Assembly (NCBI GenBank): GCA_009914755.4
Contig: CP068257.2
Coordinates: 8,192,001-8,256,000, forward strand
Source: the human T2T-CHM13v2.0 reference genome, Homo sapiens
DNA length: 64,000 nucleotides
Direction of reading: 5' to 3'
Part shown: piece by piece, positions 1-64,000 of the stretch
Numbering within the stretch: the first letter of the stretch is position 1
Layout of the letters: the number at the start of each line of letters is the position of its first letter
Position numbers and translations under genes: made by a program
Notes under the pieces: generated by a model
Seen by the model: only the letters and a program-made list of their open reading frames with translations
Databases searched by the model: none
Told to the model about the DNA's origin: nothing

Positions 1-52
1 GCTTCTGTCTAGTTTTTATGTGAATATATTTCCTTTTCCACTATAGGCCGTC
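1..52. repeat. 3' end of a preceding HOR copy (partial)
   Basis: Sequence 1-52 matches the last ~52 bp preceding the phase point in every other copy (e.g. 16657-16708). Confidence 0.8.
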
Positions 53-39600: not shown

Positions 39601-40529
39601 TGAATGCACACATCATGAAGTTCCTCAGAATGCTTCTATTTTTATGTGAAGATATATCCTTTTCTACCATAGACCACAAAACGCTCCAAATATCCCCTTG
39701 CAGTTTCTACTAAAAGAGTGTTTCCAAACGGCTCAATCAAAAGAAAGTTTCAACTCTGTGAGATAAATGCACACATCATTAAGAAGTTTCTCAGTAATTT
39801 TCTGTCTAGTTTTTATGTGAAGATATTTCCTTTCCTACTATAGGCCTGAAAGTGCTGCAAATATCCGTTTGCAGATACTGCAAAAAGACTGTTTCCACAC
39901 TGCTCAATCAAAGGAAATGTCCAACTCTGTGAGTTGAATGCACGCATCACAGAGAGATTATTTCTAATGATTCTGTCTAGTTTTGATGTGAAGATATTTG
40001 CTTTTCCACCAGTGGCCTCAAACTCTCCAAATATCCACTTGCAGATTCTACAATAAGAGTGTTTCAAAACTGCTCAATCAAAGAAAGGTTCAACACTGTG
40101 AGATGAATGCACACGTCACAAAGCACTTTCTTAGAATGCTTCTGTCTAGCTTTTATGTGAAGATATTTCCTTTTTCACCATAGGCTGCAAAGCGCTCCAA
40201 ATATCCCTTTCAGATTCTACAGAAAGAGTGTTTCAAAACTGTTCAATCAAAAGAGAAACTCAACTCTGGTGATGAATGCACGCATCACAAAGCAGTTTCT
40301 CATAATGTTTCTGTCTAGTTTTTATGTGAAGATATTTCATTCTCCACTATAGGCCGTAATGCACTCCTAATATCCACTTGCAGATTCTACAAAAAGACTG
40401 TTTGCAAACTGCTCAAACAAAAGAAAAGTTCAACTCTGTGAGTTGAATGAGCACATCACAAAGAAGTTTCTCAGAATGCTTCTGTCTAGTTTTTATGTGA
40501 ATATATTTCCTTTTCCACTATAGGCCGTC
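36616..40529. repeat. HOR copy 10, 23-mer, 3914 bp, haplotype III
   Basis: 3914-bp period; ORF peptides are identical to copies 7 and 8. Confidence 0.85.
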
Positions 40530-43500: not shown

Positions 43501-44444
43501 TCAACACTTTGAGATGAATGCACACATCATGAAGTTCCTCAGAATGCTTCTATTTTTATGTGAAGATATATCCTTTTCTACCATAGACCACAAAACGCTC
43601 CAAATATCCCCTTGCAGTTTCTACTAAAAGAGTGTTTCCAAACGGCTCAATCAAAAGAAAGTTTCAACTCTGTGAGATGAATGCACACATCATTAAGAAG
43701 TTTCTCAGTAATTTTCTGTCTAGTTTTTATGTGAAGATATTTCCTTTCCTACTATAGGCCTGAAAGTGCTGCAAATATCCGTTTGCAGATACTGCAAAAA
43801 GACTGTTTCCACACTGCTCAATCAAAGGAAATGTCCAACTCTGTGAGTTGAATGCATGCATCTCAAAGAGATTACTTATAATGATTCTGACTAGTTTTGA
43901 TGTGAAGATATTTGCTTTTCCACCAGTGGCCTCAAACTCTCCAAATATCCACTTGCAGATTCTACAATAAGAGTGTTTCAAAACTGCTCAATCAAAAGAA
44001 AGGTTCAACACTGTGAGATGAATGCACACGTCACAAAGCACTTTCTTAAAATGCTTCTGTCTAGCTTTTATGTGAAGATATTTCCTTTTTCACCATAGGC
44101 TGCAAAGCGCTCCAAATATCCCTTTCAGATTCTACAGAAAGAGAGTTTCAAAACTGTTCAATCAAAAGAGAAACTCAACTCTGGTGATGAATGCACGCAT
44201 CACAAAGCAGTTTCTCATAATATTTCTGTCTAGTTTTTATGTGAAGATATTTCATTCTCCACTATAGGCCGTAATGCACTCCTAATATCCACTTGCAGAT
44301 TCTACAAAAAGACTGTTTGCAAACTGCTCAAACAAAAGAAAAGTTCAACTCTGTGAGTTGAATGAGCACATCACAAAGAAGTTTCTCAGAATGCTTCTGT
44401 CTAGTTTTTATGTGAATATATTTCCTTTTCCACTATAGGCCGTC
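40530..44444. repeat. HOR copy 11, 23-mer, 3915 bp, haplotype III with additional private SNVs
   Basis: Phase 'atg' located at 40530. Several private substitutions (e.g. 'ccaagctgctc', 'tgttagttgaatg', 'caaaacaaagg') fuse two spurious ORFs. Confidence 0.85.
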
Positions 44445-47400
44445 ATGCGCTCCAAATATCCACTTGCAGATTCTACAAAAAGACTGTTTCCAAACTGCTC
44501 AGTCAAAAGAAAAGCTCAAATCTGTGAGTTGAATGAGCACATCCCAAAGAAGTTCTTCAGAATGCTTCTATCTAGTTTTTATGTGAATATATTTGCTTTT
44601 CCACCACAGGCCACAAACCCTCCAAATATCCACTTGAAGATTCTACAAAAAGAGTGCTTCAAAAATGCGCAATCAAAAGAAAGGTTCAACTCTTCGAGAT
44701 GGACGCACACATCACAAAGAAGCTTCCCAGAATGTTTCTGTCTAGTTTTATTGTGAAGATATTTCCTTTTCCACCGTAGTCCTCAAGTCTCTCCAAATAT
44801 CTACTTTCAGAATCTCCAAAAAGAGTGTTTTAAAACTGCTGTACCAAAGAAAGTTTCATGTCTGAGATATGACTGCATACAACACAGAGAACTTTCTCAA
44901 AGTGCTTCTGTTTATTTTTCTTATGAAGATATTTCCTTTTCCACTATGGGCCACAGAGTGCTCCAAATATCCACTGGCAGATTCTACAAAAAGGGTGTTT
45001 CAAAACTGCTCAATCAATAGAAAGTTTGAAGTCTGTGAGATGAATGTACACATCACAAAGGAGTTTCTAAGAATGCTTCCATCTGAATTTTATGTGAGGA
45101 TATTTCCTTTTTCACCATAGGCCTCAGTACACTCCAAATATCCATTTACAGATAATACAAATGACTGTATCCAAACTGCTCAATCAAAAGAAAGTTCAAC
45201 TCTGTATGATGAATGCACACATCACAAGGGTGTTTCTCAGAAAGATTTTGTCTAGTTTTTAGGTGAAGATATTTCTTATTTCCCCAGAGGCCTCAATGGG
45301 CTCTCAAATATTCCCTTTCATATTCTACTAAATGACTGTATCGAAGCTGCTCAATCAAAAGACGGGTTTAACAGTGTGAGACGAAAATACACCTTCCTAG
45401 GAAGTTTCTCAGAATTCTTCTTTCTAGTTTTTTATGTGAAGATATTTCCTTTTCCACTATAGGCCTCAAAGCGTTCCAAATATCCACTTGCAGATACTAC
45501 AAATAGAGCGTTTCAAAACTGCTCAATCAAAAGAAAGGTTCAACTCTGTGAGATGAATGCAGACATCAAAAAAACTTTCTCAGAATGCTTCCGCCTTGTT
45601 TTTATGTGAAGATATTTCCTTTTTCACCATAGGCCTCAAAGCACTGGTAATATCCATTTGCAGATACTACAAAAAGACTGTTCCCAAACTGCTCAATAAA
45701 AAGAAATTTTCAACTCTATGAGATAAAAGCTAATATCACAAAGAAGTTTCTCAGAAACTTTCTATCTAGTTTTTATGTGAACATATTTCTTATCACCCCA
45801 TAGACCTCAATCGGCTCACAAGTATCCTTCTGCAGATTGTAAAAAACTACTGTTTCCAAACCGCTCAATCACAGGAAAGGTTTAACTCTGTGAAATGAAT
45901 GCATCCATCACAGAGAAGTTTCTCAGAATGCTTCCGTCTCGTTTTCATGTGAAGAAGATTCCTTTTCCACCATATTCCTCATGCGCTCCAAATAAACACT
46001 TGCAGATTCCGCTAAAAGAGTGTTTCAAAACTGCTCAATCAAAAGAAAGGTTCTAGTCGGTGAGATGAATGCACACATCCCAAAGAAGTTTCTATGAATG
46101 CTTCTGTCTGATTTATATTGAAGATATTTCCTTTTTCACCGTAGGCCTCAGAGTGCTTAAAATATCCATTTGCAGATACTAGAAAAGACTGTTTCCAAAC
46201 TGCTCAATCAAAGTAAAGTTCAACTCAGTGAGATGAATGCACACATCACCAAGACGTCTCTGAGAAAGATTCTGTCTCGTTTTTATGTGAAGATATTTCC
46301 TGTTTCCCCAGAGGCATCAATGGGCTCACAAATATTCCTTTGCATATTCTACAAAATGACTGTTTAGAAGGTGCTCAATCAAAAAAAAAGTTCAACAGTG
46401 TGAGATGAATGCGCCCATTCAAAGGAAGTTTCTCAGAATTCTTCTATCTAGTTTTTATGTGAAGATATTTCCTTTTTCACTATAGGCCACAAAGTGCTCC
46501 AAATATCCACTTGCAGACTCTACAAAACGAGTGTATCCACACTGCACAATCAAAAGAATATTTCAACTGTGTGAGATGAATGCACACATCTAAATAAATT
46601 TCTCCAAAACTTCTGCCTACTTTTTATGGGAAGATATTTCGTTTTTCAACGTAGGCCAAAAGCACTCCAAATATCAATTTGCAGATTCTACAAAAAGACT
46701 GTTTCCAAACTGCTCAATCAAGAGAAAGTTTCAACCCAGTGAGTAGAAGTCACACATGACAAAATAGTTTCTCAGAAAGTATCTGTCTAGTTTTTATGTG
46801 AAGATATTTCCTATCACCCCAGAAGCCTCAATGGTCTCACAAATATTCCTTTGCAGATTCTACAAAACGACAGTTTCAAAACTGCTGAATCAAAAGAAAG
46901 GTTCAACTCTGTGAGATTAATGCACAGATCACAAATAAGTTTCTCAGAATGCTGCTGTCTAGTTTTTATCGGAAGAGATTTCCTTTTCCACCATAGGCCT
47001 CAAAGCTCTCCAAATAGCCATTTGCAGATACTGTAAAAAGACTGTTTCCAAACTGCTGAATCAAAAGAAAGGTTGAACTCCATGAGTTGAATGCACACGT
47101 CACAAAGAAGTTTCTCAGAATGCTTCTGACTAGTTTTTATGTGAAGATATTTTCTTTTCCACCGTAGGCCTCAAAGCGCTGAAAATATCCACTTGAAGAT
47201 TCTACCAAAAGAGAGTTTCAAAACTGCTCAAACAAAAGAAAGATTGAACTCTGTGAGATGAATGCACACATCACAAAGAAGTTTCTCAGAATGCTTCTGT
47301 CTAGTTTTATGTAAAGATATTTCCTTTTCTACTATAGGCCACAAAGCACTCCAAATATCAACTTGCAGATTCTGCAGAAAGAGTTTTTCAAAGCTGCTCA

Positions 47401-48356
47401 ATCAAAAGAAAAGTTCAACTCTTTGAGATGAATGCACACATCATGAAGTTCCTCAGAATGCTTCTATTTTTATGTGAAGATATATCCTTTTCTACCATAG
47501 ACCACAAAACGCTCCAAATATCCCCTTGCAGTTTCTACTAAAAGAGTGTTTCCAAACGGCTCAATCAAAAGAAGTTTCAACTCTGTGAGATGAATGCACA
47601 CATCATTAAGAAGTTTCTCAGTAATTTTCTGTCTAGTTTTTATGTGAAGATATTTCCTTTCCTACTATAGGCCTGAAAGTGCTCCAAATATCCGTTAGCA
47701 GATACTGCAAAAAGACTGTTTCCAAACTGCTCAATCAAAGGAAATGTCCAACTCTGTGAGTTGAATGCACGCATCTCAAAGAGATTACTTATAATGATTC
47801 TGTCTAGTTTTGATGTGAAGATATTTGCTTTTCCACCAGTGGCCTCAAACTCTCCAAATATCCACTTGCAGATTCTACAATAAGAGTGTTTCAAAACTGC
47901 TCAATCAAAAGAAAGGTTCAACACTGTGAGATGAATGCACACGTCACAAAGCACTTTCTTAGAATGCTTCTGTCTAGCTTATATGTGAAGATATTTCTTT
48001 TTCACCATAGGCTGCAAAGCGCTCCAAATATCCCTTTCAGATTCTACAGAAAGAGTGTTTCAAAACTGTTCAATCAAAAGAGAAATTCAACTCTGGTGAT
48101 GAATGCACGCATCACAAAGCAGTTTCTCATAATGTTTCTGTCTAGTTTTTATGTGAAGATATTTCATTTTCCACTATAGGCCGTAATGCACTCCTAATAT
48201 CCACTTGCAGATTCTACAGAAAGACTGTTTGCAAACTGCTCAAACAAAAGAAAAGTTCAACTCTGTGAGTTGAATGAGCACATCACAAAGAAGTTTCTCA
48301 GAATGCTTCTGTCTAGTTTTTATGTGAATATATTTCCTTTTCTACTACAGGCCGTA
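44445..48356. repeat. HOR copy 12, 23-mer, ~3912 bp, divergent haplotype III derivative
   Basis: 3912-bp period with multiple private SNVs or small indels relative to copies 7-10. Confidence 0.8.
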
Positions 48357-51300
48357 ATGCGCTCCAAATATCCACCTGCAGATTCTACAAAAAGACAGTT
48401 TCCAAACTGCTCAATCAAAAGAAAAGTTCAACTCTGTGAGTTGAATGAGCACATCACAAAGAAGTTTCTCAGAATGCTTCTATCTAGTTTTTATGTGAAT
48501 ATATTTCCTTTTCCACCACAGGCCAAAAACACTCCAAATATCCACTTGAAGATTCTACAAAAAGAGTGCTTCAAAAATGCTCAATCAAAAGAAAGGTTCA
48601 ACTCTTTGAGATGGATGCACACATCACAAAGAAGCTTCTCAGAATGTTCCTGTCTAGTTTTTTTGTGAAGATATTTCCTTTTCCACCGTAGTCCTCAAGT
48701 CTCTCCAAATATCTACTTTCAGAATCTCCAAAAAGAGTGTTTTAAAACTGCTGTACCAAAGACATTTTCATGTCTGAGATATGACTGCATACAACACAGA
48801 GAAGTTTCTCAAAGTGCTTCTGTTTATTTTTTTTATGAAGATATTTCCTTTTCCACTATTGGCCACAGAGCGCTCCAAATATCCACTGGCAGATTCTACA
48901 AAAAGAGTGTTTCAAAACTGCTCAATCAATAGAAAGTTTGAAGTCTGTGAGATGAATGCACACATCACAAAGGAGTTTCTAAGAATGCTTCCATCTGAAT
49001 TTTATGTGAGGATATTTCCTTTTTCACCATAGGCCTCAATACACTCCAAATATCCATTTACAGATAATACAAATGACTGTATCCAAACTGCTCAATCAAA
49101 AGAAAGTTCAACTGTGTATGATGAATGCACACATCACAAGGGTGTTTCTCAGAAAGTTTTTGCCTAGCTTTTAGGTGAAGATATTTCTTATTTCCCCAGA
49201 GGTCTCAATGGGCTCTCAAATATTCCCTTTCATATTCTACTAAATGACTGTATCGAAGCTGCTCAATCAAAAGACGGGTTTAACACTGTGAGACGAAAAT
49301 ACACCTTCCTAGGAAGTTTCTCAGAATTCTTCTTTCTAGTTTTTTATGTGAAGATATTTCCTTTTCCACTATAGGCCTCAAAGCGTTCCAAATATCCACT
49401 TGCAGAAACTACAAATAGAGCGTTTCAGAACTGCTCAATCAAAAGAAAGGTTCAACTCTGTGAGATGAATGCAGACATCAAAAAGAAGTTTCTCAGAATG
49501 CTTCTGCCTTGTTTTTATGTGAAGATATTTCCTTTTTCACCATAGGCCTCAAAGCACTGGTAATATCCATTTGCAGATACTACAAAAAGACTGTTCCCAA
49601 ACTGCTCAATAAAAAGAAAGTTTCAACTCTATGAGATAAAAGCAAATATCACAAAGAAGTTTCTCAGAAACTTTCTATCTAGTTTTTATGTGAACATATT
49701 TCTTATCACCCCATAGACCTCAATCGGCTCACAAGTATCCTTCTGCAGATTGTAAAAAACTACTGTTTCCAAACCGCTCAATCACAGGAAAGGTTTAACT
49801 CTGTGAAATGAATGCATCCATCACAGAGAAGTTTCTCAGAATGCTTCCGTCTCGTTTTTATGTGAAGAAGATTCCTTTTCCACCATATTCCTCATGCGCT
49901 CCAAAGAAACACTTGCAGATTCCGCTAAAAGAGTGTTTCAAAACTGCTCAATCAAAAGACAGGTTCTAGTCGGTGAGATGAATGCACACATCACAAAGAC
50001 GTTTCTATGAATGCTTCTGTCTGATTTATATTGAAGATATTTCCTTTTTCACCGTAGGCCTCAGAGTGCTTAAAATATCCATTTGCAGATACTAGAAAAG
50101 ACTGTTTCCAAACTGCTCAATCAAAATAAAGTTCAACTCAGTGAGATGAATGCACACATCACCAAGACGATTCTGACAAAGATTCTGTCTCGTTTTTATG
50201 TGAAGATATTTCCTGTTTCCCCAGAGGCATCAATGGGCTCACAAATATTCCTTTGCATATTCTACAAAATGACTGTTTAGAAGGTGCTGAATCAAAAAAA
50301 AAGTTCAACAGTGTGAGATGAATGCGCCCATTCAACGGAAGTTTCTCAGAATTCTTCTATCTAGTTTTTATGTGAAGATATTTCCTTTTTCACTATAGGC
50401 CAGAAAGTGCTCCAAATATCCACTTGCAGACTCTACAAAACGAGTGTATCCACACTGCTCAATCAAAAGAAAATTTCAACTGTGTGAGATGAATGCACAC
50501 ATCAAAATAAATTTCTCCAAAACTTCTGCCTACTTTTTATGGGAAGATATTTCGTTTTTCAACGTAGGCCAGAAGCACTCCAAATATCAATTTGCAGATT
50601 CTACAAAAAGACTGTTTCCAAACTGCTCAATCAAGAGAAAGTTTCAACCTGGTGAGTAGAAGTCACACATGACAAAATAGTTTCTCAGAAAGTATCTGTC
50701 TAGTTTTTATGTGAAGATATTTCCTATCACCCCAGAAGCCTCAATGGGCTCACAAATATTCCTTTGCAGATTCTACAAAACGACAGTTTCAAAACTGCTG
50801 AATCAAAAGAAAGGTTCAACTCTGTGAGATGAATGCACAGATCACAAATAAGTTTCTCAGAATGCTGCTGTCTAGTTTTTATGGGAAGATATTTCCTTTC
50901 CCACCATAGGCCTCAAAGCTCTCCAAATAGCCATTTGCAGATACTGTAAAAAGACTGTTTCCAAACTGCTGTATCAAAAGAAAGGTTGAACTCCATGAGT
51001 TGAATGCACACGTCACAAAGAAGTTTCTCAGAATGCTTCTGACTAGTTTTTATGTGAAGATATTTCCTTTTCCACTATAGGCCTCAAAGCGTTCCAAATA
51101 TCCACTTGCAGAAACTACAAATAGAGCGTTTCAGAACTGCTCAATCAAAAGAAAGGTTCAACTCTGTGAGATGAATGCAGACATCAAAAAGAAGTTTCTC
51201 AGAATGCTTCTGCCTTGTTTTTATGTGAAGATATTTCCTTTTTCACCATAGGCCTCAAAGCACTGGTAATATCCATTTGCAGATACTACAAAAAGACTGT

Positions 51301-53975
51301 TCCCAAACTGCTCAATAAAAAGAAAGTTTCAACTCTATGAGATAAAAGCAAATATCACAAAGAAGTTTCTCAGAAACTTTCTATCTAGTTTTTATGTGAA
51401 CATATTTCTTATCACCCCATAGACCTCAATCGGCTCACAAGTATCCTTCTGCAGATTGTAAAAAACTACTGTTTCCAAACCGCTCAATCACAGGAAAGGT
51501 TTAACTCTGTGAAATGAATGCATCCATCACAGAGAAGTTTCTCAGAATGCTTCCGTCTCGTTTTTATGTGAAGAAGATTCCTTTTCCACCATATTCCTCA
51601 TGCGCTCCAAAGAAACACTTGCAGATTCCGCTAAAAGAGTGTTTCAAAACTGCTCAATCAAAAGACAGGTTCTAGTCGGTGAGATGAATGCACACATCAC
51701 AAAGACGTTTCTATGAATGCTTCTGTCTGATTTATATTGAAGATATTTCCTTTTTCACCGTAGGCCTCAGAGTGCTTAAAATATCCATTTGCAGATACTA
51801 GAAAAGACTGTTTCCAAACTGCTCAATCAAAATAAAGTTCAACTCAGTGAGATGAATGCACACATCACCAAGACGATTCTGACAAAGATTCTGTCTCGTT
51901 TTTATGTGAAGATATTTCCTGTTTCCCCAGAGGCATCAATGGGCTCACAAATATTCCTTTGCATATTCTACAAAATGACTGTTTAGAAGGTGCTGAATCA
52001 AAAAAAAAGTTCAACAGTGTGAGATGAATGCGCCCATTCAACGGAAGTTTCTCAGAATTCTTCTATCTAGTTTTTATGTGAAGATATTTCCTTTTTCACT
52101 ATAGGCCAGAAAGTGCTCCAAATATCCACTTGCAGACTCTACAAAACGAGTGTATCCACACTGCTCAATCAAAAGAAAATTTCAACTGTGTGAGATGAAT
52201 GCACACATCAAAATAAATTTCTCCAAAACTTCTGCCTACTTTTTATGGGAAGATATTTCGTTTTTCAACGTAGGCCAGAAGCACTCCAAATATCAATTTG
52301 CAGATTCTACAAAAAGACTGTTTCCAAACTGCTCAATCAAGAGAAAGTTTCAACCTGGTGAGTAGAAGTCACACATGACAAAATAGTTTCTCAGAAAGTA
52401 TCTGTCTAGTTTTTATGTGAAGATATTTCCTATCACCCCAGAAGCCTCAATGGGCTCACAAATATTCCTTTGCAGATTCTACAAAACGACAGTTTCAAAA
52501 CTGCTGAATCAAAAGAAAGGTTCAACTCTGTGAGATGAATGCACAGATCACAAATAAGTTTCTCAGAATGCTGCTTTCTAGTTTTTATGGGAAGATATTT
52601 CCTTTCCCACCATAGGCCTCAAAGCTCTCCAAATAGCCATTTGCAGATACTGTAAAAAGACTGTTTCCAAACTGCTGTATCAAAAGAAAGGTTGAACTCC
52701 ATGAGTTGAATGCACACGTCACAAAGAAGTTTCTCAGAATGCTTCTGACTAGTTTTTATGTGAAGATATTTTCTTTTCCACAGTAGGCCTCAAAGCGCTG
52801 AAAATATCCACTTGAAGATTCTACAAATGAGAGTTTCAAAACTGCTCAAACAAAAGAAAGATTCAACTCTGTGAGATGAATGCACACATCACAAAGAAGT
52901 TTCTCAGAATGCTTCTGTCTAGTTTTATGTAAAGATATTTCCTTTTCTACTATAGGCCACAAAGCACTCCAAATATCAACTTGCAGATTCTGCAGAAAGA
53001 GTTTTTCAAAGCTGCTCAATCAAAAGAAAAGTTCAACTCTTTGAGATGAATGCACACATCAGGAAGTTCCTCAGAATGCTTCTATTTTTATGTGAAGATA
53101 TAGCCTTTTCTACCATAGACGACAAAACGCTCCAAATATCCCCTTGCAGTTTCTACTAAAAGAGTGTTTCCAAACTGCTCAATCAAAAGAAGTTTCAACT
53201 CTGTGAGATGAATGCACTCATCAATAAGAAGTTTCTCAGTAATTTTCTGTCTAGTTTTTATGTGAAGATATTTCCTTTCCTACTATAGGCCTGAAAGTGC
53301 TCCAAATATCCGTTTGCAGATACTGCAAAAAGACTGTTTCCAAACTGCTCAATCAAAGGAAATGTCCAAATCTGTGAGTTGAATGCACGCATCTCAAAGA
53401 GATTACTCATAATGATTCTGTCTAGTTTTGATGTGAAGATATTTGCTTTTCCACCAGTGGCCTCAAACTCTCCAAATATCCACTTGCAGATTCTACAATA
53501 AGAGTGTTTCAAAACTGCTCAATCAAAAGAAAGGTTCAACACTGTGAGATGAATGCACACGTCACAAAGCACTTTCTTAGAATGCTTCTGTCTAGCTTTT
53601 ATGTGAAGATATTTCCTTTTTCACCATAGGCTGCAAAGCGCTCCAAATATCCCTTTCAGATTCTACAGAAAGAGTGTTTCAAAACTGTTCAATCAAAAGA
53701 GAAACTCAACTCTGGTGATGAATGCACGCATCACAAAGCAGTTTCTCATAATGTTTCTGTCTAGTTTTTATGTGAAGATATTTCATTTTCCACTATAGGC
53801 CGTAATGCACTCCTAATATCCACTTGCAGATTCTACAGAAAGACTGTTTGCAAACTGCTCAAACAAAAGAAAAGTTCAGCTCTGTGAGTTGAATGAGCAC
53901 ATCACAAAGAAGTTTCTCAGAATGCTTCTGTCTAGTTTTTATGTGAATATATTTCCTTTTCCACTATAGGCCGTA
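48357..53975. repeat. HOR copy 13, expanded to ~5619 bp (33 monomers) by internal 10-monomer tandem duplication; edge haplotype IV
   Basis: Phase point at 48357, next at 53976. The D and E monomer ORFs occur twice, 1706 bp apart (50083/51789 and 50444/52150). Confidence 0.85.
49351..52762. repeat. Near-identical tandem duplication of a ~1.7 kb 10-monomer block within HOR copy 13 (first copy ~49351-51062, second ~51063-52762)
   Basis: After the F-region monomer (…gcttctgactagtttttatgtg), the sequence at ~51060 jumps back to the monomer normally following C ('aagatatttccttttccactataggcctcaaagcgttccaaatatccacttgcagaaactac'). The D and E ORF peptides are duplicated identically, and I noticed only one SNV between the two copies. 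Confidence 0.8.
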
Positions 53976-56900
53976 ATGCGCTCCAAATATCCACCTGCAG
54001 ATTCTACAAAAAGACCGTTTCCAAAGTGCTCAATCAAAAGAAAAGTTCAACTCTGTGAGTTGAATGAGCACATCACAAAGAAGTTTCTCACAATGCTTCT
54101 ATCTAGTTTTTATGTGAATATATTCCCTTTTCCACCACAGGCCACAAACACTCCAAATATCCACTTGAAGATTCTACAAAAAGAGTGCTTCAAAAATGCT
54201 CAATCAAAAGAAAGGTTCAACTCTTTGAGATGGATGCACACATCACAAAGAAGCTTCTCAGAATGTTCCTGTCTAGTTTTTTTGTGAAGATATTTCCTTT
54301 TCCACCGTAGTCCTCAAGTCTCTCCAAATATCTACTTTCAGCATCTCCAAAAAGAGTGTTTTAAAACTGCTGTACCAAAGAAAGTTTCGTGTCTGAGATA
54401 TGACTGCATACAACACAGAGAAGTTTCTCAAAGTGCTTCTGTTTATTTTTTTTATGAAGATATTTCCTTTTCCACTATGGGCCACAGAGCGCTCCAAATA
54501 TTCACTGGCAGATTCTACAAAAAGAGTGTTTCAAAACTGCTCAATCAATAGAAAGTTTGAAGTCTGTGAGATGAATGCACACATCACAAAGGAGTTTCTA
54601 AGAATGCTTCCATCTGAATTTTATGTGAGGATATTTCCTTTTTCACCATAGGCCTCAATACACTCCAAATATCCATTTACAGATAATACAAATGACTGTA
54701 TCCAAACTGCTCAATCAAAAGAAAGTTCAACTGTGTATGATGAATGCACACATCACAAGGGTGTTTCTCAGAAAGTTTTTGTCTAGCTTTTAGGTGAAGA
54801 TATTTCTTATTTCCCCAGAGGTCTCAATGGGCTCTCAAATATTCCCTTTCATATTCTACTAAATGACTGTATCGAAGCTGCTCAATCAAAAGACGGGTTT
54901 AACAGTGTGAGACGAAAATACACCTTCCTAGGAAGTTTCTCAGAATTCTTCTGTCTAGTTTTTTATGTGAAGATATTTCCTTTTCCACTATAGGCCTCAA
55001 AGCGTTCCAAATATCCACTTGCAGATACTACAAATAGAGCGTTTCAAAACTGCTCAATCAAAAGAAAGGTTCAACTCTGTGAGATGAATGCAGACATCAA
55101 AAAGAAGTTTCTCAGAATGCTTCTGCCTTGTTTTTATGTGAAGATATTTCCTTTTTCACCATAGGCCTCAAAGCACTGGTAATATCCATTTGGAGATACT
55201 ACAAAAAGACTGTTCCCAAACTGCTCAATAAAAAGAAAGTTTCAACTCTATGAGATAAAAGCAAATATCACAAAGAAGTTTCTCAGAAAATTTCTATCTA
55301 GTTTTTATGTGAACATATTTCTTATCACCCCATAGACCTCAATCGGCTCACAAGTATCCTTCTGCAGATTGTAAAAAACTACTGTTTCCAAACCGCTCAA
55401 TCACAGGAAAGGTTTAACTCTGTGAAATGAATGCATCCATCACAGAGAAGTTTCTAAGAATGCTTCCGTCTCGTTTTTATGTGAAGAAGATTCCTTTTCC
55501 ACCATATTCCTCATGCGCTCCAAAGAAACACTTGCAGATTCCGCTAAAAGAGTGTTTCAAAACTGCTCAATCAAAAGAAAGGTTCTAGTCGGTGAGATGA
55601 ATGCACACATCACAAAGACGTTTCTATGAATGCTTCTGTCTGATTTATATTGAAGATATTTCCTTTTTCACCGTAGGCCTCAGAGTGCTTAAAATATCCA
55701 TTTGCAGATACTAGAAAAGACTGTTTCCAAACTGCTCAATCAAAATAAAGTTCAACTCAGTGAGATGAATGCACACATCACCAAGACGTTTCTGAGAAAG
55801 ATTCTGTCTCGTTTTTATGTGAAGATATTTCCTGTTTCCCCAGAGGCATCAATGGGCTCACAAATATTCCTTTGCATATTCTACAAAATGACTGTTTAGA
55901 AGGTGCTCAATCAAAAAAAAAGTTCAACAGTGTGAGATGAATGCGCCCATTCAACGGAAGTTTCTCAGAATTCTTCTATCTAGTTTTTATGTGAAGATAT
56001 TTCCTTTTTCACTATAGGCCACAAAGTGCTCCAAATATCCACTTGCAGACTCTACAAAACGAGTGTATCCACACTGCTCAATCAAAAGAAAATTTCAACT
56101 GTGTGAGATGAATGCACACATCAAAATAAATTTCTCCAAAACTTCTGCCTACTTTTTATGGGAAGATATTTCGTTTTTCAACGTAGGCCAAAAGCACTCC
56201 AAATATCAATTTGCAGATTCTACAAAAAGACTGTTTCCAAACTGCTCAATCAAGAGAAAGTTTCAACCTGGTGAGTAGAAGTCACACATGACAAAATAGT
56301 TTCTCAGAAAGTATCTGTCTAGTTTTTATGTGAAGATATTTCCTATCACCCCAGAAGCCTCAATGGGCTCACAAATATTCCTTTGCAGATTCTACAAAAC
56401 GACAGTTTCAAAACTGCTGAATCAAAAGAAAGGTTCAACTCTGTGAGATGAATGCACAGATCACAAATAAGTTTCTCAAAATGCTGCTGTCTAGTTTTTA
56501 TGGGAAGATATTTCCTTTCCCACCATAGGCCTCAAAGCTCTCCAAATAGCCATTTGCAGATACTGTAAAAAGACTGTTTCCAAACTGCTGTATCAAAAGA
56601 AAGGTTGAACTCCATGAGTTGAATGCACACGTCACAAAGAAGTTTCTCAGAATGCTTCTGACTAGTTTTTATGTGAAGATATTTTCTTTTCCACAGTAGG
56701 CCTCAAAGCGCTGAAAATATCCACTTGAAGATTCTACAAATGAGAGTTTCAAAACTGCTCAAACAAAAGAAAGATTCAACTCTGTGAGATGAATGCACAC
56801 ATCACAAAGAAGTTTCTCAGAATGCTTCTGTCTAGTTTTATGTAAAGATATTTCCTTTTCTACTATAGGCCACAAAGCACTCCAAATATCAACTTGCAGA

Positions 56901-57888
56901 TTCTGCAGAAAGAGTTTTTCAAAGCTGCTCAATCAAAAGAAAAGTTCAACTCTTTGAGATGAATGTACACATCAGGAAGTTCCTCAGAATGCTTCTATTT
57001 TTATGTGAAGATATAGCCTTTTCTACCATAGACCACAAAACGCTCCAAATATCCCCTTGCAGTTTCTACTAAAAGAGTGTTTCCAAACTGCTCAATCAAA
57101 AGAAGTTTCAACTCTGTGAGATGAATGCACTCATCAATAAGAAGTTTTTCAGTAATTTTCTGTCTAGTTTTTATGTGAAGATATTTCCTTTCCTACTATA
57201 GGCCTGAAAGTGCTCCAAATATCCGTTTGCAGATACTGCAAAAAGACTGTTTCCAAACTGCTCAATCAAAGGAAATGTCCAACTCTGTGAGTTGAATGCA
57301 CGCATCTCAAAGAGATTACTCATAATGATTCTGTCTAGTTTTGATGTGAAGATATTTGCTTTTCCACCAGTGGCCTCAAACTCTCCAAATATCCACTTGC
57401 AGATTCTACAATAAGAGTGTTTCAAAACTGCTCAATCAAAAGAAAGGTTCAACACTGTGAGATGAATGCACACGTCACAAAGCACTTTCTTAGAATGCTT
57501 CTGTCTAGCTTTTATTTGAAGATATTTCCTTTTTCACCATAGGCTGCAAAGCGCTCCAAATATCCCTTTCAGATTCTACAGAGAGAGTGTTTCAAAACTG
57601 TTCAATCAAAAGAGAAATTCAACTCTGGTGATGAATGCACGCATCACAGAGCAGTTTCTCATAATGTTTCTGTCTATTTTTTATGTGAAGTTATTTCATT
57701 TTCCACTATAGGCCGTAATGCACTCCTAATATCCACTTGCAGATTCTACAAAAAGACTGTTTGCAAACTGCTCAAACAAAAGAAAAGTTCAACTCTGTGA
57801 GTTGAATGAGCACATCACAAAGAAGTTTCTCAGAATGCTTCTGTCTAGTTTTTATGTGAATATATTTCCTTTTCCACTATAGGCCGTA
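53976..57888. repeat. HOR copy 14, 23-mer, 3913 bp, edge haplotype IV
   Basis: 3913-bp period; shares 'ccacctgcag', 'caaacactcc', 'gagatggatgcac' variants with copies 2, 13 and 16. Confidence 0.85.
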
Positions 57889-57984
57889 ATGTGCTCCAAA
57901 TATCCACCTGCAGATTCTACAAAAAGACTGTTTCCAAAGTGCTCAATCAAAAGAAAAGTTCAACTCTGTGAGATGAATGAGCAC

Positions 57985-58000
57985 ATCACAAAGAAGCTTC
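57985..58000. other. In-register deletion junction removing one ~170-bp monomer (fusion of HOR monomers 1 and 2)
   Basis: Before the junction the sequence follows monomer 1 (…gagcacatcacaaagaag). It then continues as monomer 2 (cttctcagaatgtttctgtctagtttttttgtg…). Compare copy 14 at 54060-54260. Confidence 0.7.
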
Positions 58001-60539
58001 TCAGAATGTTTCTGTCTAGTTTTTTTGTGGAGATATTTCCTTTTCCACCGTAGTCCTCAAGTCTCTCCAAATACCTACTTTCAGAATCTCCAAAAAGAGT
58101 GTTTTAAAACTGCTGTACCAAAGAAAGTTTCATGTCTGAGTTATGACTGCATACAACACAGAGAAGTTTCTCAAAGTGCTTCTGTTTATTTTTTTTATGA
58201 AGATATTTCCTTTTCCACTATTGGCCACAGAGCGCTCCAAATATCCACTGGCAGATTCTACAAAAAGAGTGTTTCAAAACTGCTCAATCAATAGAAAGTT
58301 TGAAGTCTGTGAGATGAATGCACACATCACAAAGGAGTTTCTAAGAATGCTTCCATCTGAATTTTATGTGAGGATATTTCCTTTTTCACCATAGGCCTCA
58401 GTACACTCCAAATATCCATTTACAGATAATACAAATGACTGTATCCAAACTGCTCAATCAAAAGAAAGTTCAACTGTGTATGATGAATGCACAAATCACA
58501 ATGGTGTTTCTCAGAAAGTTTTTGTCTAGTTTTTAGGTGAAGATATTTCTTATTTCCCCAGAGGCCTCAATGGGCTCTCAAATATTCCCTTTCATATTCT
58601 ACTAAATGACTGTATCGAAGCTGCTCAATCAAAAGACGGGTTTAACAGTGTGAGACGAAAATACACCTTCCTAGGATGTTTCTCAGAATTCTTCTTTCTA
58701 GTTTTTTATGTGAAGATATTTCCTTTTCCACTATAGGCCTCAAAGCGTTCCAAATATCCACTTGCAGATACTACAAATAGAGCGTTTCAAAACTGCTCAA
58801 TCAAAAGAAAGGTTCAACTCTGCGAGATGAATGCAGACATCAAAAAGAAGTTTCTCAGAATGCTTCTGCCTTGTTTTTATGTGAAGATATTTCCTTTTTC
58901 AAAATAGGCCTCAAAGCACTGGTAATATCCATTTGCAGATACTACAAAAAGACTGTTCCCAAACTGCTCAATAAAAAGAAAGTTTCAACTCTAGCAGATA
59001 AAAGCAAATATCACAAAGAAGTTTCTCAGAAACTTTCTATCTATTTTTTATGTGAACATATTTCTTATCACCCCATAGACCTCAATCGGCTCACAAGTAT
59101 CCTTCTGTAGATTATGAAAAACTACTGTTTCCAAACCGCTCAATCACAGGAAAGGTTTAACTCTGTGAAATGAATGCATCCATCACAGAGAAGTTTCTCA
59201 GAATGCTTCCGTCTCGTTTTTATGTGAAGAAGATTCCTTTTCCACCATATTCCTCATGCGCTCCAAATAAACACTTGCAGATTCCGCTAAAAGAGTGTTT
59301 CAAAACTGCTCAATCAAAAGAAAGGTTCTAGTCGGTGAGATGAATGTACACATCCCAAAGAAGTTTCTATGAATGCTTCTGTCTGATTTATATTGAAGAT
59401 ATTTCCTTTTTCACCGTAGGCCTCAGAGTGCTTAAAATATCCATTTGCAGATACTAGAAAAGACTGTTTCCAAACTGCTCAATCAAAATAAAGTTCAACT
59501 CAGTGAGATGAATGCACACATCACCAAGACGTTTCTGAGAAAGATTCTGTCTCGTTTTTATGTGAAGATATTTCCTGTTTCCCCAGAGGCATCAATGGGC
59601 TCACAAATATTCCTTTGCATATTCTACAAAATGACTGTTTAGAAGGTGCTCAATCAAAAAAAAAGTTCAACAGTGTGAGATGAATGCGCCCATTCAAAGG
59701 AAGTTTCTCAGAATTCTTCTATCTAGTTTTTATGTGAAGATATTTCCTTTTTCACTATAGGCCACAAAGTGCTCCAAATATCCACTTGCAGACTCTGCAA
59801 AACGAGTGTATCCACACTGCTCAATCAAAAGAAAATTTCAACTGTGTGAGATGAATGCACACATCAAAATAAATTTCTCCAAAACTTCTGCCTACTTTTT
59901 ATGGGAAGATATTTCGTTTTTCAACGTAGGCCAAAAGCACTCCAAATATCAATTTGCAGATTCTACAAAAAGACTGTTTCCAAACTGCTCAATCAAGAGA
60001 AAGTTTCAACCCGGTGAGTAGAAGTCACACATGACAAAATAGTTTCTCAGAAAGTATCTGTCTAGTTTTTATGTGAAGATATTTCCTATCACCCCAGAAG
60101 CCTCAATGGGCTCACAAATATTCCTTTGCAGATTCTACAAAACGACAGTTTCAAAACTGCTGAATCAAGAGAAAGGTTCAACTCTGTGAGATGAATGCGC
60201 AGATCACAAATAAGTTTCTCAGAATGCTGCTGTCTAGTTTTTATGGGAAGATATTTCCTTTTCCACCATAGGCCTCAAAGCTCTCCAAATATCCATCTGC
60301 AGATACTGTAAAAAGACTGTTTCCAAACTGCTGAATCAAAAGAAAGGTTGAACTCCATGAGTTGAATGCACACGTCACAAAGAAGTTTCTCAGAATGCTT
60401 CTGACTAGTTTTTATGTGTAGATATTTTCTTTTCCACCATAGGCCTCAAAGCGCTGAAAATATCCACTTGAAGATTCTACAGAAAGAGAGTTTCAAAACT
60501 GGTCAAACAAAAGAATGATTCAACTCTGTGAGATGAATG

Positions 60540-60555
60540 CACACTTCACAAAGCA
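60540..60555. other. In-register deletion junction removing ~672 bp (4 monomers, including the dimer unit and the following two monomers)
   Basis: '…gatgaatgcacacttcacaaag' joins directly to 'cactttcttagaatgcttctgtctagcttttat', which normally lies 4 monomers downstream (compare 56790-57500). Confidence 0.7.
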
Positions 60556-60959
60556 CTTTCTTAGAATGCTTCTGTCTAGCTTTTATTTGAAGATATTTCC
60601 TTTTTCACCATAGGCTGCAAAGCACTCCAAATATCCCTTTCAGATTCTACAGAGAGAGTGTTTCAAAACTGTTCAATCAAAAGAGAAATTCAACTCTGGT
60701 GATGAATGCACGCATCACAGAGCAGTTTCTCATAATGTTTCTGTCTATTTTTTATGTGAAGTTATTTCATTTTCCACTATAGGCCGTAATGCACTCCTAA
60801 TATCCACTTGCAGATTCTACAAAAAGACTGTTTGCAAACTGCTCAAACAAAAGAAAAGTTCAACTCTGTGAGTTGAATGAGCACATCACAAAGAAGTTTC
60901 TCAGAATGCTTCTGTCTAGTTTTTATGTGAATATATTTCCTTTTCCACTATAGGCCGTA

Positions 60960-61520
60960 ATGCGCTCCAAATATCCACCTGCAGATTCTACAAAAAGACT
61001 GTTTCCAAACTGCTCAATCAAAAGAAAAGTTCAACTCTGTGAGATGAATGAGCACATCACAAAGAAGTTTCTCAGAATGCTTCTATCTAGTTTTTATGTG
61101 AATATATTTCCTTTTCCACCACAGGCCACAAACACTCCAAATATCCACTTGAAGATTCTACAAAAAGAGTGCTTCAAAAATGCTCAATCAAAAGAAAGGT
61201 TCAACTCTTTGAGATGGATGCACACATCACAAAGAAGCTTCTCAGAATGTTTCTGTCTAGTTTTTTTGTGAAGATATTTCCTTTTCCACCGTAGTCCTCA
61301 AGTCTCTCCAAATATCTACTTTCAGAATCTCCAAAAAGAGTGTTTTAAAACTGCTGTACCAAAGAAAGTTTCATGTCTGAGATATGACTGCATACAACAC
61401 AGAGAAGTTTCTCAAAGTGCTTCTGTTTATTTTTTTTATGAAGATATTTCCTTTTCCACTATGGGCCACAGAGCGCTCCAAATATCCACTTGCAGATTCT
61501 ACAAAAAGAGTGTTTCAAAC
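60960..61520. repeat. HOR copy 16 (partial, first ~3.3 monomers) ending at array boundary
   Basis: Matches the first ~560 bp of the HOR unit, then homology to the HOR is lost at ~61515-61525. Confidence 0.8.
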
Positions 61521-64000
61521 CTGCTCAATCAAAAGGAAGATTTTACTCTATGAGATGAATGGACACATCACAGAGAAGTTTCTCAATATGCTTTTGTCTA
61601 GTTTTTATGTTAAGATGTTTCCTTTTCCATTCCATGAAGTAAAGTGATGCAAATATCCATTTGTAGATATTACAAAAAGACTGCTTCCAAACTCCTCGAT
61701 CAAAAGAAAGGTTCAACTCTGTGAGTTGAATGCACACATCACAAAAAATTTTCTCAGAATGCTTCTGTCTAGTTTTTATGTGAAGATATTTCCTTTTCCA
61801 CCATAGGCCTCAAAGCACTCAAAATGTCCGTTTGCAGACACTACAGAAAGACGCTTTCCAAGCAGCTCAATCAAAGGAAATGTTCAGCTCTGTGAATTGA
61901 ATGCACATCACAAAGTAGTTTCCCAGAATGTTTCTTTCCTGTATATATGTGAAGATATTTCCTTTTCCAATATAGGCCTCAAAGCACTCCAAATATCAAC
62001 TTGCAGATTCTGTGAAAAGGGTGTTTCAAACTTCCCAATCACAGGAAATGTTCAACTCTGTGAGATGAATGCACACAACATGAAGAATTTACTCAGAATG
62101 CTTCTGTCTGGTTTTTATTTGAAGATATTTCCTTATCCACTATAGGCCACAAAGCGCTCCATATATCCACTTGCAGATACTACAAAAAGAGTGTTTCCAA
62201 ACTGCTCAATCAAAAGAAAGGTTCAACTCCGTGAGTTGAATGCGCACATAACAAAGAATTTTCTCAGAATGCTTCTGTCTAGTTTTCATGTGAAGATATT
62301 TCCTTTTCCACCACATGCCTCAAAGCGCTCCAAAAATCCACAAGCAGATTCCATAAATAGAGTATTTCAAAACTGCTGAATCAAAAGAAAGTTTCAGCTC
62401 TGTGAGATGAATGCACACTTCACAATGAAGATTCTCAGAATGCTTCTGTCTAGTTTTTATGTGAAGATAATTCCTTTTCCACATTAGGCCTCAAAACTCT
62501 TCAAATATGCCTTGCAGATTCTACAAAAAGAGTGTTTCAAAACTGCTCAATCGAAAGAAAGGTTCAAGTCTGTGAGATGAATGCACATCTCAGAAAGACG
62601 TTTCTCAGAATGCTTCTGTCTAGTTTTTATTTGAAGATTTATCCTTTTCCACAATAGGCTGCAAAGTGCTCCAAATATCCACTTACAGATTCTTCAAAAA
62701 GAGTGTTTCCAGACTGCTCAATCAAAAGAAAGGTTCAACTCTGTTAGTTGAATGCACACATTACAACAAAGTTTATCAGAATGCTTCTGTCTAGTTTTTA
62801 GGTGAATATATTCCCTTTTAAACTGTAGTCTGCAAAGCACTCCAAATATTCACTTGCAGATTCTACAAAAAAAGTGATTCAAAATTGCTCAATCAAAAGA
62901 AGGGTTCAACAGTGTTAGTTGAATGCACACATCACAAAGAAGTTTCTCAGAATGCTTCTGTCTAGTTTTTATGTGAAGATATATCCTTTTCCACCGTAGG
63001 CCCCAAAGCACTCCAAATATCCACTGGTAGAGTCTACAAATGTGCGTTTCAATACTACTCAATCAAAAGAAACGTTCAACTTTGTGAGATGAAAGCACGC
63101 ATCACAAAGTTGTTTCTCAGAATGCTCTGTCTAGTTTTTATGTGAAGATATTTCCTTTTATACCATAGGCCCCAAAGTGTTCCAAATATCCACCTTCAGA
63201 TTCTACAAAAAGTGTGTTTCAAAACTGCTCAACCAAAAGAAAGGTTCAAACCTGTGAGATGAATGCACACATCACAAAGGAGTTTCTCAGAATGCTTCTG
63301 TCTAGTTTTTGTGTGAAGTTATTTCCTTTACCACCATAGGACTGAAAGAGCTCCAAATGTCCACTTGCAGAATCTACAAAAAGAGTGTTTCAAAATTGCT
63401 CAATCAAAATAAAAGTTCAACTCTGTTAGAAGAATGCACACATCACAAAAATTTCACAGAATGCTTCTGTCTATTTTTTATGTGAAGATATTTCCTTTTC
63501 CACTTGAGACTGGAAAGAGCTTCAAATATCCAATTGCAGATTCTGCAAAAGAGTGTTTCAAAACTGCTCAATCAAAGGAAAGGTACAATTCAGTGAACTG
63601 AATGTGCACATCAGAAGGAAGTTTCTTAGAATACCTCTGTGCAGTTATTATGTGAAGATATTTACTTTTCCACCATAGGCCCCAAGGCTCTCCAAATATC
63701 CAATTGCAGATTCAACAAAAAGTGTGTTTCAAAACTGCTCAATCAAAAGAAAGGTTCAACTCTGTGGGAGGAATGCTCACATCACACACAGGTTTCTCAG
63801 AATGCTTCTGTCTTTTTTCTGTGTGAAGATATTTCCTTTTCCACTAGAGGATGCAAAGCGCTCAAAATATCCACTTGCAGATTTTACAAAAGGGTGTTTC
63901 TAAAATGCTAAATCAAAATAGTTTCAAGTCTGTGAGATGAATGCATATATCCCAAAGAAGTTTCTCAGAATGCTTCTGTCTAGTTTTTATGTGAAGATAT
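61521..64000. repeat. Divergent monomeric alpha satellite (~14.5 monomers), same orientation as HOR array
   Basis: Roughly 171-bp units still recognisable as alpha satellite (ctccaaatatccacttgcagattctacaaaaag…aatgcacacatcacaaag…tagtttttatgtgaagatatttcc). Adjacent monomers differ by roughly 15-30%, and no higher-order periodicity is detectable in 2.5 kb. Confidence 0.8.

What the first reader, a model, noticed from the sequence alone, without database searches (positions are those of the whole stretch)
61480..61560. Sharp, in-register boundary between homogeneous HOR array and divergent monomeric alpha satellite
Up to ~61515 the sequence matches the HOR at ~98%. From 'caaacctgctcaatcaaaaggaagattttactc' onward it has no specific similarity to the next HOR monomer, only generic alpha-satellite similarity. 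Satellite orientation and monomer phase are preserved across the junction. There is no intervening non-satellite sequence or transposon, which suggests the array expanded within pre-existing monomeric alpha satellite. Such boundaries mark the transition from (peri)centromeric HOR to monomeric layers and are useful anchors for locating this array.
Basis: partly seen in the sequence, partly recalled or inferred. Interest (0 to 1): 0.55.

Follow-up and report, generated by a model that had tools for sequence, protein, structure and literature searches.

The report
Known chr21 alpha-satellite HOR/monomeric edge
This is the real but already annotated edge of an inactive 23-monomer alpha-satellite repeat array on the short arm of human chromosome 21, where the uniform array stops inside one 171-bp unit and older, diverged alpha satellite continues in the same phase.

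Summary
The whole window is head-to-tail 171-bp alpha satellite in one orientation. Positions 1-61,520 are a 23-monomer higher-order repeat (HOR) with four 25-mer variants, and its copies are 98.3-99.4% identical to consensus. The last HOR monomer (61,351-61,520) is 97.6% identical to its class. The next monomer is only 75.9% identical to the expected class. None of the 14 following monomers fits the 23-mer in any cyclic register, and they are 71-85% identical to each other. Monomer phase is kept and nothing is inserted. The exchange point can only be placed within 61,472-61,520.

Copy order, copy spacing and consensus sequences identify the window as T2T-CHM13 chr21, about 8,192,171-8,256,170. 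This is the published "23/25mer" array, named S4/6C13/14/21H1 and classed as inactive. It lies 2.7 Mb distal of the active centromere. The T2T cenSat track already annotates hor_21_1 followed by mon_21_2, 142 kb of monomeric alpha satellite. Chromosome 13 carries a paralogous arrangement.

The junction is best read as an in-register unequal exchange. Three hybrid-monomer deletions with the same signature lie in the last three HOR copies. The novelty is nil.

The parts
1..61520 (-). Part of the homogeneous 23-monomer alpha-satellite HOR array S4/6C13/14/21H1 (hor_21_1). The window starts inside the array, and the monomers are reverse-complemented relative to the usual alpha-satellite consensus.
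   Evidence: There are 23 monomer classes in fixed order. Same-class monomers 23 apart have a median identity of 97.1%. Copies are 98.3-99.4% identical to consensus. Published t1-t23 consensus monomers match at 96.5-98.2%. Copy starts match published CHM13 chr21 coordinates to within 1 bp.
5041..22030 (-). Four consecutive 25-mer variant HOR copies in which monomers Q and R (published t11-t12) are duplicated.
   Evidence: The class string shows QRQR in four copies with spacing of 4,247-4,248 bp. The same run of '4 x 25mer' is published.
50966..51136 (-). In-register P/F hybrid monomer that marks a 13-monomer deletion within a HOR copy.
   Evidence: Diagnostic bases are class P for about the first 82 columns and class F from about column 101 onward. 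The published second variant copy lacks t10-t22.
57939..58109 (-). In-register A/B hybrid monomer that marks a one-monomer deletion.
   Evidence: Diagnostic bases are mostly class A for about the first 42 columns, with two class-B bases among them, and class B afterwards. The published fourth variant copy lacks t18.
60499..60668 (-). In-register Q/U hybrid monomer that marks a four-monomer deletion (rest of Q, R, S, T, start of U).
   Evidence: Diagnostic bases are class Q in about the first 26 columns and class U from about column 55, apart from one stray Q-type base near column 125. The published fifth variant copy lacks t11-t14.
61351..61520 (-). Terminal HOR monomer (class C), which carries the junction in its last third.
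   Evidence: It has 4 mismatches in 170 bp against the class-C consensus. Class-C private bases run up to 61,471.
61472..61520 (.). Breakpoint interval, a 49-bp tract within which the switch from HOR to flank must lie.
   Evidence: There is no class-diagnostic position between 61,471 and 61,520. Base 61,520 is private to this copy.
61521..64000 (-). Start of the divergent monomeric alpha satellite (mon_21_2). It holds 14 full monomers and one partial monomer, in the same orientation and phase.
   Evidence: Pairwise identity is 71-85.5% (mean 80.6%). The best HOR class is never the expected one, with a maximum of 88.4%. No register fits. cenSat annotates 142.6 kb of monomeric alpha satellite from here.

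Best explanation
The feature is the centromere-proximal edge of the inactive 23/25-mer alpha-satellite HOR array S4/6C13/14/21H1 on human chromosome 21p. In T2T-CHM13 the junction falls at about chr21:8,253,642-8,253,690, in the coordinates used by Gluncic et al. 2025. There the array abuts old monomeric alpha satellite, annotated mon_21_2, whose monomers are classed SF4 and SF6 where the table checked here lists them, 86 kb and more beyond the junction.

Shown: a 23-monomer unit was amplified and is kept about 98-99% uniform. This uniformity stops within a single monomer. The flank is about 20% diverged alpha satellite in the same orientation and exact 171-bp phase, with no foreign DNA.

Inferred: the array arose by amplification of a 23-monomer stretch inside a 'dead' monomeric alpha-satellite cluster. 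Its present end is a hybrid monomer made by in-register unequal homologous exchange (or an equivalent replication-template switch) between a class-C HOR monomer and a flank monomer. The exchange used the generic 49-bp tract 61,472-61,520. The same process produced the three in-register hybrid-monomer deletions found in the last three HOR copies. The junction is therefore most likely a secondary edge that truncated the last copy after monomer C, rather than the original end of the amplified unit.
For: Identity of the locus: the copy order is 23, 4x25, 7x23 (the published six canonical 23-mers plus the first 'variant' copy, which is also 23 monomers long). Then come copies lacking P-E, A and QRST, which equals the published order. 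Copy starts map to the published 8,233,839 / 8,237,753 / 8,243,372 within 1 bp. Published consensus monomers match at 96.5-98.2% in the expected frame.

Annotation: cenSat lists mon_21_1 | hor_21_1 (S4/6C13/14/21H1, 72,804 bp) | mon_21_2. The HOR table lists it as 23 monomers, SF4/6, 'pseudo' and homogeneous.

Sharpness and register.

In-register recombination near the edge: P/F, A/B and Q/U hybrid monomers.

Secondary edge: the published array begins with t1 (my G/H) and ends in t19/t20 (my C), which is not a whole number of units.

Age contrast: HOR copies differ by about 1-2% and flank monomers by about 19%. L1PA3 and L1PA4 elements are annotated in mon_21_2, and none of the rows seen in the L1 table falls inside the HOR.

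[quoted passage not shown] SF4+ HORs on acrocentrics are read as amplifications in dead arrays (PMC4496801).
Against: The recombination partner is not observable, so the exchange mechanism is inferred from the hybrid structure only. The immediate flank monomers are no closer to HOR monomers than generic alpha satellite (at most 88%). The seed of the HOR is therefore not visible in the 2.5 kb of flank in this window. The upstream edge of the array lies outside the window, so 'embedded in monomeric satellite' rests on the published annotation. Only 14 flank monomers are available, so periodicities longer than 13 monomers cannot be excluded from the sequence itself. SF classification of the flank was not computed here.
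Confidence: 0.8

Rival explanations
1. The C|flank junction is the primary end of the originally amplified segment. Under this reading the flank is simply what followed monomer C in the ancestral monomeric array, and no later exchange occurred at this edge.
For: A tandem amplification of a monomeric stretch would by itself give a sharp, in-phase, insertion-free boundary with an unrelated next monomer, as seen. The breakpoint tract is uninformative.
Against: The published array starts at t1 (G/H) and ends in t19/t20 (C), so it is not a whole number of units. At least one edge must be secondary. This edge is where three in-register deletions cluster. Base 61,520 and the atypical first flank monomer do not help either way.
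Confidence: 0.15
2. The downstream sequence is not truly monomeric. It would instead belong to a different long-period or low-copy HOR (period over 13 monomers), such as the 21-mer divergent HOR or the two-copy 52-mer reported on chr21.
For: Only 14 flank monomers are in the window, so long periods are untestable here. Gluncic et al. report a 52-mer 'in physical proximity' to the 23-mer array without giving coordinates in the text.
Against: cenSat labels the next 142.6 kb as monomeric. The 52-mer sits at monomer number ~2300 in chromosome order. By my own rough count from the annotated alpha-satellite block lengths, the 23/25-mer array falls within about the first 500 monomers. That places the 52-mer hundreds of kb away. 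No pair among the 14 monomers exceeds 85.5%.
Confidence: 0.04
3. The downstream sequence is a divergent continuation of the same 23-mer (a dHOR).
For: None was found.
Against: The expected classes D through Q give 75-84% identity and are never the best match. Mean identity for the expected register is 0.797, against 0.78-0.82 for all 23 registers.
Confidence: 0.01
4. The junction is an assembly artefact, such as a collapse or misjoin inside a satellite.
For: Satellite arrays are prone to misassembly. The window alone cannot prove that the join is genuinely contiguous.
Against: An independent clone-based assembly (hg38 chr21, about 7.97 Mb) holds the same reverse-oriented 23-mer array of similar size, with 20 copies and 74,877 bp. 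CHM13 chr13 has the paralogous mon|HOR|mon arrangement with flanks of matching size. The join is in exact monomer phase.
Confidence: 0.02

Closest known systems
T2T-CHM13 cenSat features hor_21_1 (S4/6C13/14/21H1) and mon_21_2 on chr21p (Altemose et al. 2021/2022, Table S1), equal to the '23/25mer HOR array' of Gluncic et al. 2025 (PMC12385485)
   Same: It is the same locus. The HOR is the same 23-mer with the same consensus monomers. The order of 23-mer, 25-mer and deleted copies is the same, as are the copy coordinates. The annotated array length of 72,804 bp equals the published 72,633 bp plus one monomer.
   Different: Nothing of substance differs. Published boundaries are given at monomer resolution in a frame shifted by 65 bp. 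This analysis adds the base-level breakpoint interval (61,472-61,520) and the hybrid nature of the variant-copy junctions.
CHM13 chr13 paralog: mon_13_1 | hor_13_1 (S4/6C13/14/21H1) | mon_13_2
   Same: The HOR family is the same. The flanks have nearly identical lengths, and HSat3 blocks lie on both outer sides. The likely cause is a shared acrocentric segmental duplication.
   Different: The chr13 HOR array is 35.9 kb, against 72.8 kb on chr21. The window holds more than 61 kb of HOR and so cannot be the chr13 copy. Whether the junction base sequence is identical was not testable here.
HOR-to-monomeric transitions at centromere cores (chromosomes X, 8 and 17; Shepelev et al. 2009, PMC2729386)
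   Same: There is an abrupt change from about 98% uniform HOR to 60-80% similar monomeric alpha satellite, with only one or two aberrant HOR copies at the border.
   Different: Those transitions flank live SF1-3 arrays that carry CENP-B boxes. This array is SF4/6, has only type-A monomers and no CENP-B box. It is annotated inactive and lies 2.7 Mb from the active array.
SF4+ 'pseudocentromere' HORs of acrocentric short arms and chromosomes 15 and 20 (Shepelev et al. 2015, PMC4496801)
   Same: These are homogeneous, low-copy HORs built from old-family monomers. They are interpreted as recent amplifications inside dead monomeric arrays. The hg38 model GJ211961.2 of this HOR is listed there as SF4+.
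   Different: None. This array is a member of that group.

Membership tests
Alpha satellite | Head-to-tail monomers of about 171 bp that match the alpha-satellite consensus | tested here: met
   TRF reports period 171 with 376 copies. nhmmer finds 377 monomer hits of length 163-173 bp.
HOR S4/6C13/14/21H1 (23-mer) | 23 distinct monomer classes in fixed order, with unit copies at least about 95% identical | tested here: met
   Classes A-W are recovered. Median identity at a lag of 23 monomers is 97.1%. Copies are 98.3-99.4% identical to consensus.
HOR S4/6C13/14/21H1 (23-mer) | Sequence match to the published consensus monomers of the chr21 23/25-mer HOR | tested here: met
   Six published monomers (t1, t11, t19, t20, t21, t23) align at 96.5-98.2% in the expected order and frame. 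The residual differences are at least partly losses from PDF text extraction.
HOR S4/6C13/14/21H1 (23-mer) | Location at CHM13 chr21 hor_21_1 (copy order and coordinates) | tested here: met
   One fitted offset reproduces three published copy starts within 1 bp, and also the array end. Direct alignment to the assembly is not possible with these tools.
Monomeric alpha-satellite layer (mon_21_2, SF4/SF6) | No higher-order periodicity, with neighbouring monomers about 15-30% diverged | tested here: met
   The 14 monomers are 71-85.5% identical to each other at every lag from 1 to 13. Longer periods cannot be tested within the window. cenSat labels this stretch monomeric.
Monomeric alpha-satellite layer (mon_21_2, SF4/SF6) | Monomers classed as Ga (SF4) or Ha (SF6) by the HumAS-HMMER or PERCON models | not testable with these tools
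   No SF consensus or HMM was obtainable. The published inversion table lists Ga/Ga and Ha/Ha monomers in mon_21_2, at 86 kb and 125 kb beyond the junction.
Monomeric alpha-satellite layer (mon_21_2, SF4/SF6) | Type-A monomers without a CENP-B box | tested here: met
   The CENP-B core motif has 0 matches on either strand. 327 of about 376 monomers carry the type-A site.
Edge of a live (kinetochore-forming) centromere core | The HOR array is the CENP-A-bound active array of the chromosome | not testable with these tools
   The published table calls this HOR 'pseudo'. The active chr21 array is S2C13/21H1L, which starts at 10.96 Mb in the coordinates used by Gluncic et al., 2.7 Mb away.
Divergent HOR (dHOR) continuation | The HOR monomer order is preserved at reduced identity | tested here: not met
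   The expected class is never the best match, and no cyclic register stands out.

The most novel reading that the evidence does not exclude
The terminal junction and the three hybrid-monomer deletions packed into the last three copies could record a directional, edge-localised erosion process. Repeated in-register unequal exchange would be confined to the proximal end of an inactive acrocentric HOR array. Comparing the chr13, chr14 and chr21 paralogs and pangenome haplotypes could then give a rate and direction for how 'pseudocentromere' arrays shrink against a fixed monomeric flank.
Probability: 0.1. Interest if true: 0.3.

Novelty: already known. Interest (0 to 1): 0.08.

Why it matters
The finding matters little beyond bookkeeping. 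The boundary is real, and it shows cleanly how homogenisation of a higher-order repeat stops within one 171-bp unit. However, the locus, its HOR family, its variant copies and the HOR/monomeric transition are already in the T2T-CHM13 centromere annotation and in a dedicated 2025 paper. Abrupt HOR-to-monomeric transitions have been described since at least 2009. The useful outcome is that the window is now placed (human chr21p, inactive S4/6C13/14/21H1 array). There is also a caution: the flank is duplicated on chr13, so it is not a unique anchor.

Tried and rejected
1. I scanned metagenome contigs and genome contigs for two flank-specific exact words, hoping to find independent (contaminant human) copies of the junction or a pre-insertion state. 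All four scans gave 0 hits. These collections are microbial, so the result is uninformative.

2. I tried to read Ziccardi et al. 2016 (alpha-satellite clusters on 21p) by DOI, PubMed id and a guessed PMC id. It is not held.

3. I looked for SF4 (Ga) and SF6 (Ha) consensus monomers in the Shepelev 2009 supplements in order to class the flank monomers. No sequences are held.

4. I considered that the T at 61,491 (class C usually has G) moves the breakpoint upstream. I rejected this as undecidable, because three other C copies also carry T.

5. I considered a claim that the breakpoint tract is the most conserved part of the monomer. Column conservation there (0.82-0.92) is not higher than elsewhere, so I dropped the claim.

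6. The first naive coordinate offset ignored the 65-bp frame shift of the published monomers. It was corrected.

7. An exact mapping of the cenSat v1.0 boundary to window coordinates is uncertain by up to about 0.3 kb, because the v1.0-to-v2.0 shift could only be inferred. The array-length agreement (72,804 = 72,633 + 171) suggests the annotated end includes the hybrid monomer.
Full report
**What is in the sequence.** Tandem Repeats Finder reports a single 171-bp array over the whole 64-kb window, and base composition is flat throughout. I cut the window into monomers with nhmmer. This gave 377 hits, all on one strand, with no gap larger than 20 bp between neighbours. I then computed all pairwise identities for the 375 full monomers. 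Identity is about 79% at every monomer lag except 23 (median 97.1%) and, for a subset, 25 and 46-48.

Single-linkage clustering at 93% gives exactly 23 classes (A-W), which recur in a fixed order. Read in the published frame (a unit running from G to F), the window holds:
- a six-monomer tail of one copy;
- one 23-mer;
- four 25-mers with monomers Q and R duplicated;
- seven 23-mers;
- a copy truncated to ten monomers;
- one further 23-mer;
- a copy lacking A;
- a last copy that lacks QRST and stops after C at 61,520.

The 14 complete monomers that follow (61,521-63,904) belong to no class.

**Check of the observation.** Aligned to the class consensus, the last A, B and C monomers have 3, 2 and 4 mismatches. 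From 61,520 onward, identity to the expected D, E and F classes is 75.9%, 78.3% and 76.2%. That is the level seen between any two HOR classes (mean 80.0%). The expected class is never the best match for any of the 14 monomers. When all 23 cyclic registers of the HOR are tried, in both directions, mean identity stays at 0.78-0.82 with no outlier.

The 14 monomers are 71-85.5% identical to each other at every spacing, so no repeat with a period of 13 monomers or fewer exists there. The terminal C monomer is 170 bp, as in every other copy, and the next monomer begins at 61,521. Orientation and phase are therefore exactly preserved, and nothing is inserted.

One refinement concerns the position of the switch. 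The last base private to class C is 61,471. Positions 61,472-61,519 are generic alpha-satellite sequence. The T at 61,491 is shared with three other C copies. Base 61,520 is private to this copy. The switch point therefore lies somewhere within 61,472-61,520.

**Identification of the locus.** A literature search for a 23-mer alpha-satellite HOR led to Gluncic et al. 2025 (PMC12385485). They describe a '23/25mer' array on T2T-CHM13 chromosome 21 running from 8,180,952 to 8,253,585. Its copy order is 23, 2x25, 23, 4x25 and 6x23. Five variant copies follow, of which the second lacks t10-t22, the fourth lacks t18, and the fifth lacks t11-t14 and t20-t23.

With t1 equal to my G/H, this is exactly the pattern in the window. 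A single offset maps my copy starts to 8,233,839, 8,237,754 and 8,243,372, against the published 8,233,839, 8,237,753 and 8,243,372. Six published consensus monomers align to my class consensus at 96.5-98.2%, reverse-complemented and shifted by 65 bp. This frame shift explains why the paper ends the array one monomer earlier, since its t20 would be half class C and half flank. With the shift, window position 1 is chr21:8,192,171 and the breakpoint interval is 8,253,642-8,253,690. That is 2.71 Mb distal of the active 11-mer array, which starts at 10,963,339.

**What the public annotation says.** The T2T cenSat table (Altemose et al., bioRxiv 10.1101/2021.07.12.452052, Table S1, v1.0 coordinates) lists three adjacent features:
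- chr21 8,905,724-8,917,707, mon_21_1;
- chr21 8,917,707-8,990,511, hor_21_1 (S4/6C13/14/21H1);
- chr21 8,990,511-9,133,092, mon_21_2.

An HSat3 block follows. The annotated HOR length of 72,804 bp equals the Gluncic length (72,633 bp) plus one monomer. The HOR table lists S4/6C13/14/21H1 as a 23-mer of suprachromosomal families 4/6. It marks the array 'pseudo' (not the live centromere) and homogeneous, and gives the hg38 model as GJ211961.2.

mon_21_2 contains annotated Ga (SF4) and Ha (SF6) monomers and L1PA3/L1PA4 insertions, the first 20.8 kb beyond the junction. This fits the published L1 dating of the SF4 layer (PMC2729386). CHM13 chr13 carries the same arrangement. Its flanks are 11,954 and 142,950 bp, against 11,983 and 142,581 bp on chr21, but its HOR array is only 35.9 kb. 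The block is therefore a shared acrocentric duplication in which only the HOR copy number differs.

The clone-based hg38 assembly independently holds a reverse-oriented 23-mer array of 20 copies and 74.9 kb at about chr21:7.97 Mb. This argues against an assembly artefact.

**How it most likely works.** Three things are shown directly:
- a 23-monomer unit is kept about 98-99% uniform, slightly less so in the last five copies;
- this uniformity ends within one monomer;
- the flank is old, about 20% diverged alpha satellite in the same phase.

No CENP-B box core motif occurs anywhere in the window, and most monomers carry the type-A site. This fits old-family (SF4+) satellite (PMC4496801).

The rest is inferred. 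The array is probably a recent amplification inside a dead monomeric cluster, which is the published reading of SF4+ HORs on acrocentric short arms. Its present end is probably a hybrid monomer produced by in-register unequal homologous exchange.

Support for exchange comes from the three internal rearrangements in the last three copies. Each proves to be an in-register hybrid monomer:
- P/F at 50,966-51,136, a 13-monomer deletion;
- A/B at 57,939-58,109, a one-monomer deletion;
- Q/U at 60,499-60,668, a four-monomer deletion.

In addition, the published array begins at t1 and ends in t19/t20, which is not a whole number of units, so at least one edge must be secondary. The alternative is that C|flank is the original end of the amplified segment. 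I cannot exclude this from the window and give it 0.15.

[quoted passage not shown] This particular boundary is already annotated at monomer resolution. It differs from the classical cases only in that the HOR is an inactive SF4/6 array far out on 21p rather than the live core.

My work adds only the base-level breakpoint interval and the hybrid-monomer nature of the variant copies. Interest is low.

**What led nowhere.** Exact-word scans of the metagenome and prokaryotic genome collections for flank-specific sequence found nothing. Ziccardi et al. 2016 could not be read. No SF consensus sequences were available to class the flank monomers directly.

Noticed in passing
window 1127-61520 (classes D to O of every HOR copy): The 23-mer has an internal three-monomer sub-period, DEF|GHI|JKL|MNO. 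D, G and J are 84-86% alike, E and K 87%, H and N 82%, and F and L 83%. Every third monomer (E, H, K, N) carries a distinct 'CCCCAGAGGC.TCAATGGGCTC'-type site and is the class least like the flank monomers (74-78%). These may be the SF6 component of the 'S4/6' name and a relic of an older trimeric repeat. This reading is inferred and was not classified with SF models.
   Followed up: partly
window 50966-51136, 57939-58109, 60499-60668: All three structural deletions in the last HOR copies are in-register hybrid monomers (P/F, A/B, Q/U). The published description lists only which monomer types are absent.
   Followed up: yes
window 61521-61691: The first flank monomer is the most aberrant of the 14, at 71-79% identity to the others. 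Its usual 'CCACCATAGGCCTCAAAGCGCTCC' stretch is replaced by 'CCATTCCATGAAGTAAAGTGATGC' at about 61,628-61,651. The cause is unknown.
   Followed up: no
window, class R monomers (18 copies, e.g. within 5041-22030): Class R is 163 bp, about 8 bp shorter than the other classes, and this length is kept in all copies. It is one of the two monomers duplicated in the 25-mer variant.
   Followed up: no
window 45519-61520: Identity of HOR copies to consensus falls slightly toward the array edge, from about 99.0-99.4% to 98.3-98.5% in four of the last five copies (the truncated ten-monomer copy stays at 99.0%). The fall coincides with the cluster of structural variants.
   Followed up: partly
window 4358-13021 (C monomers of three 25-mer copies): Three of the four 25-mer copies share private substitutions in class C and class D (for example a G and the T that corresponds to position 61,491). 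The terminal C monomer also has the T. The 25-mer block therefore looks like a distinct HOR haplotype that was amplified as a block.
   Followed up: no
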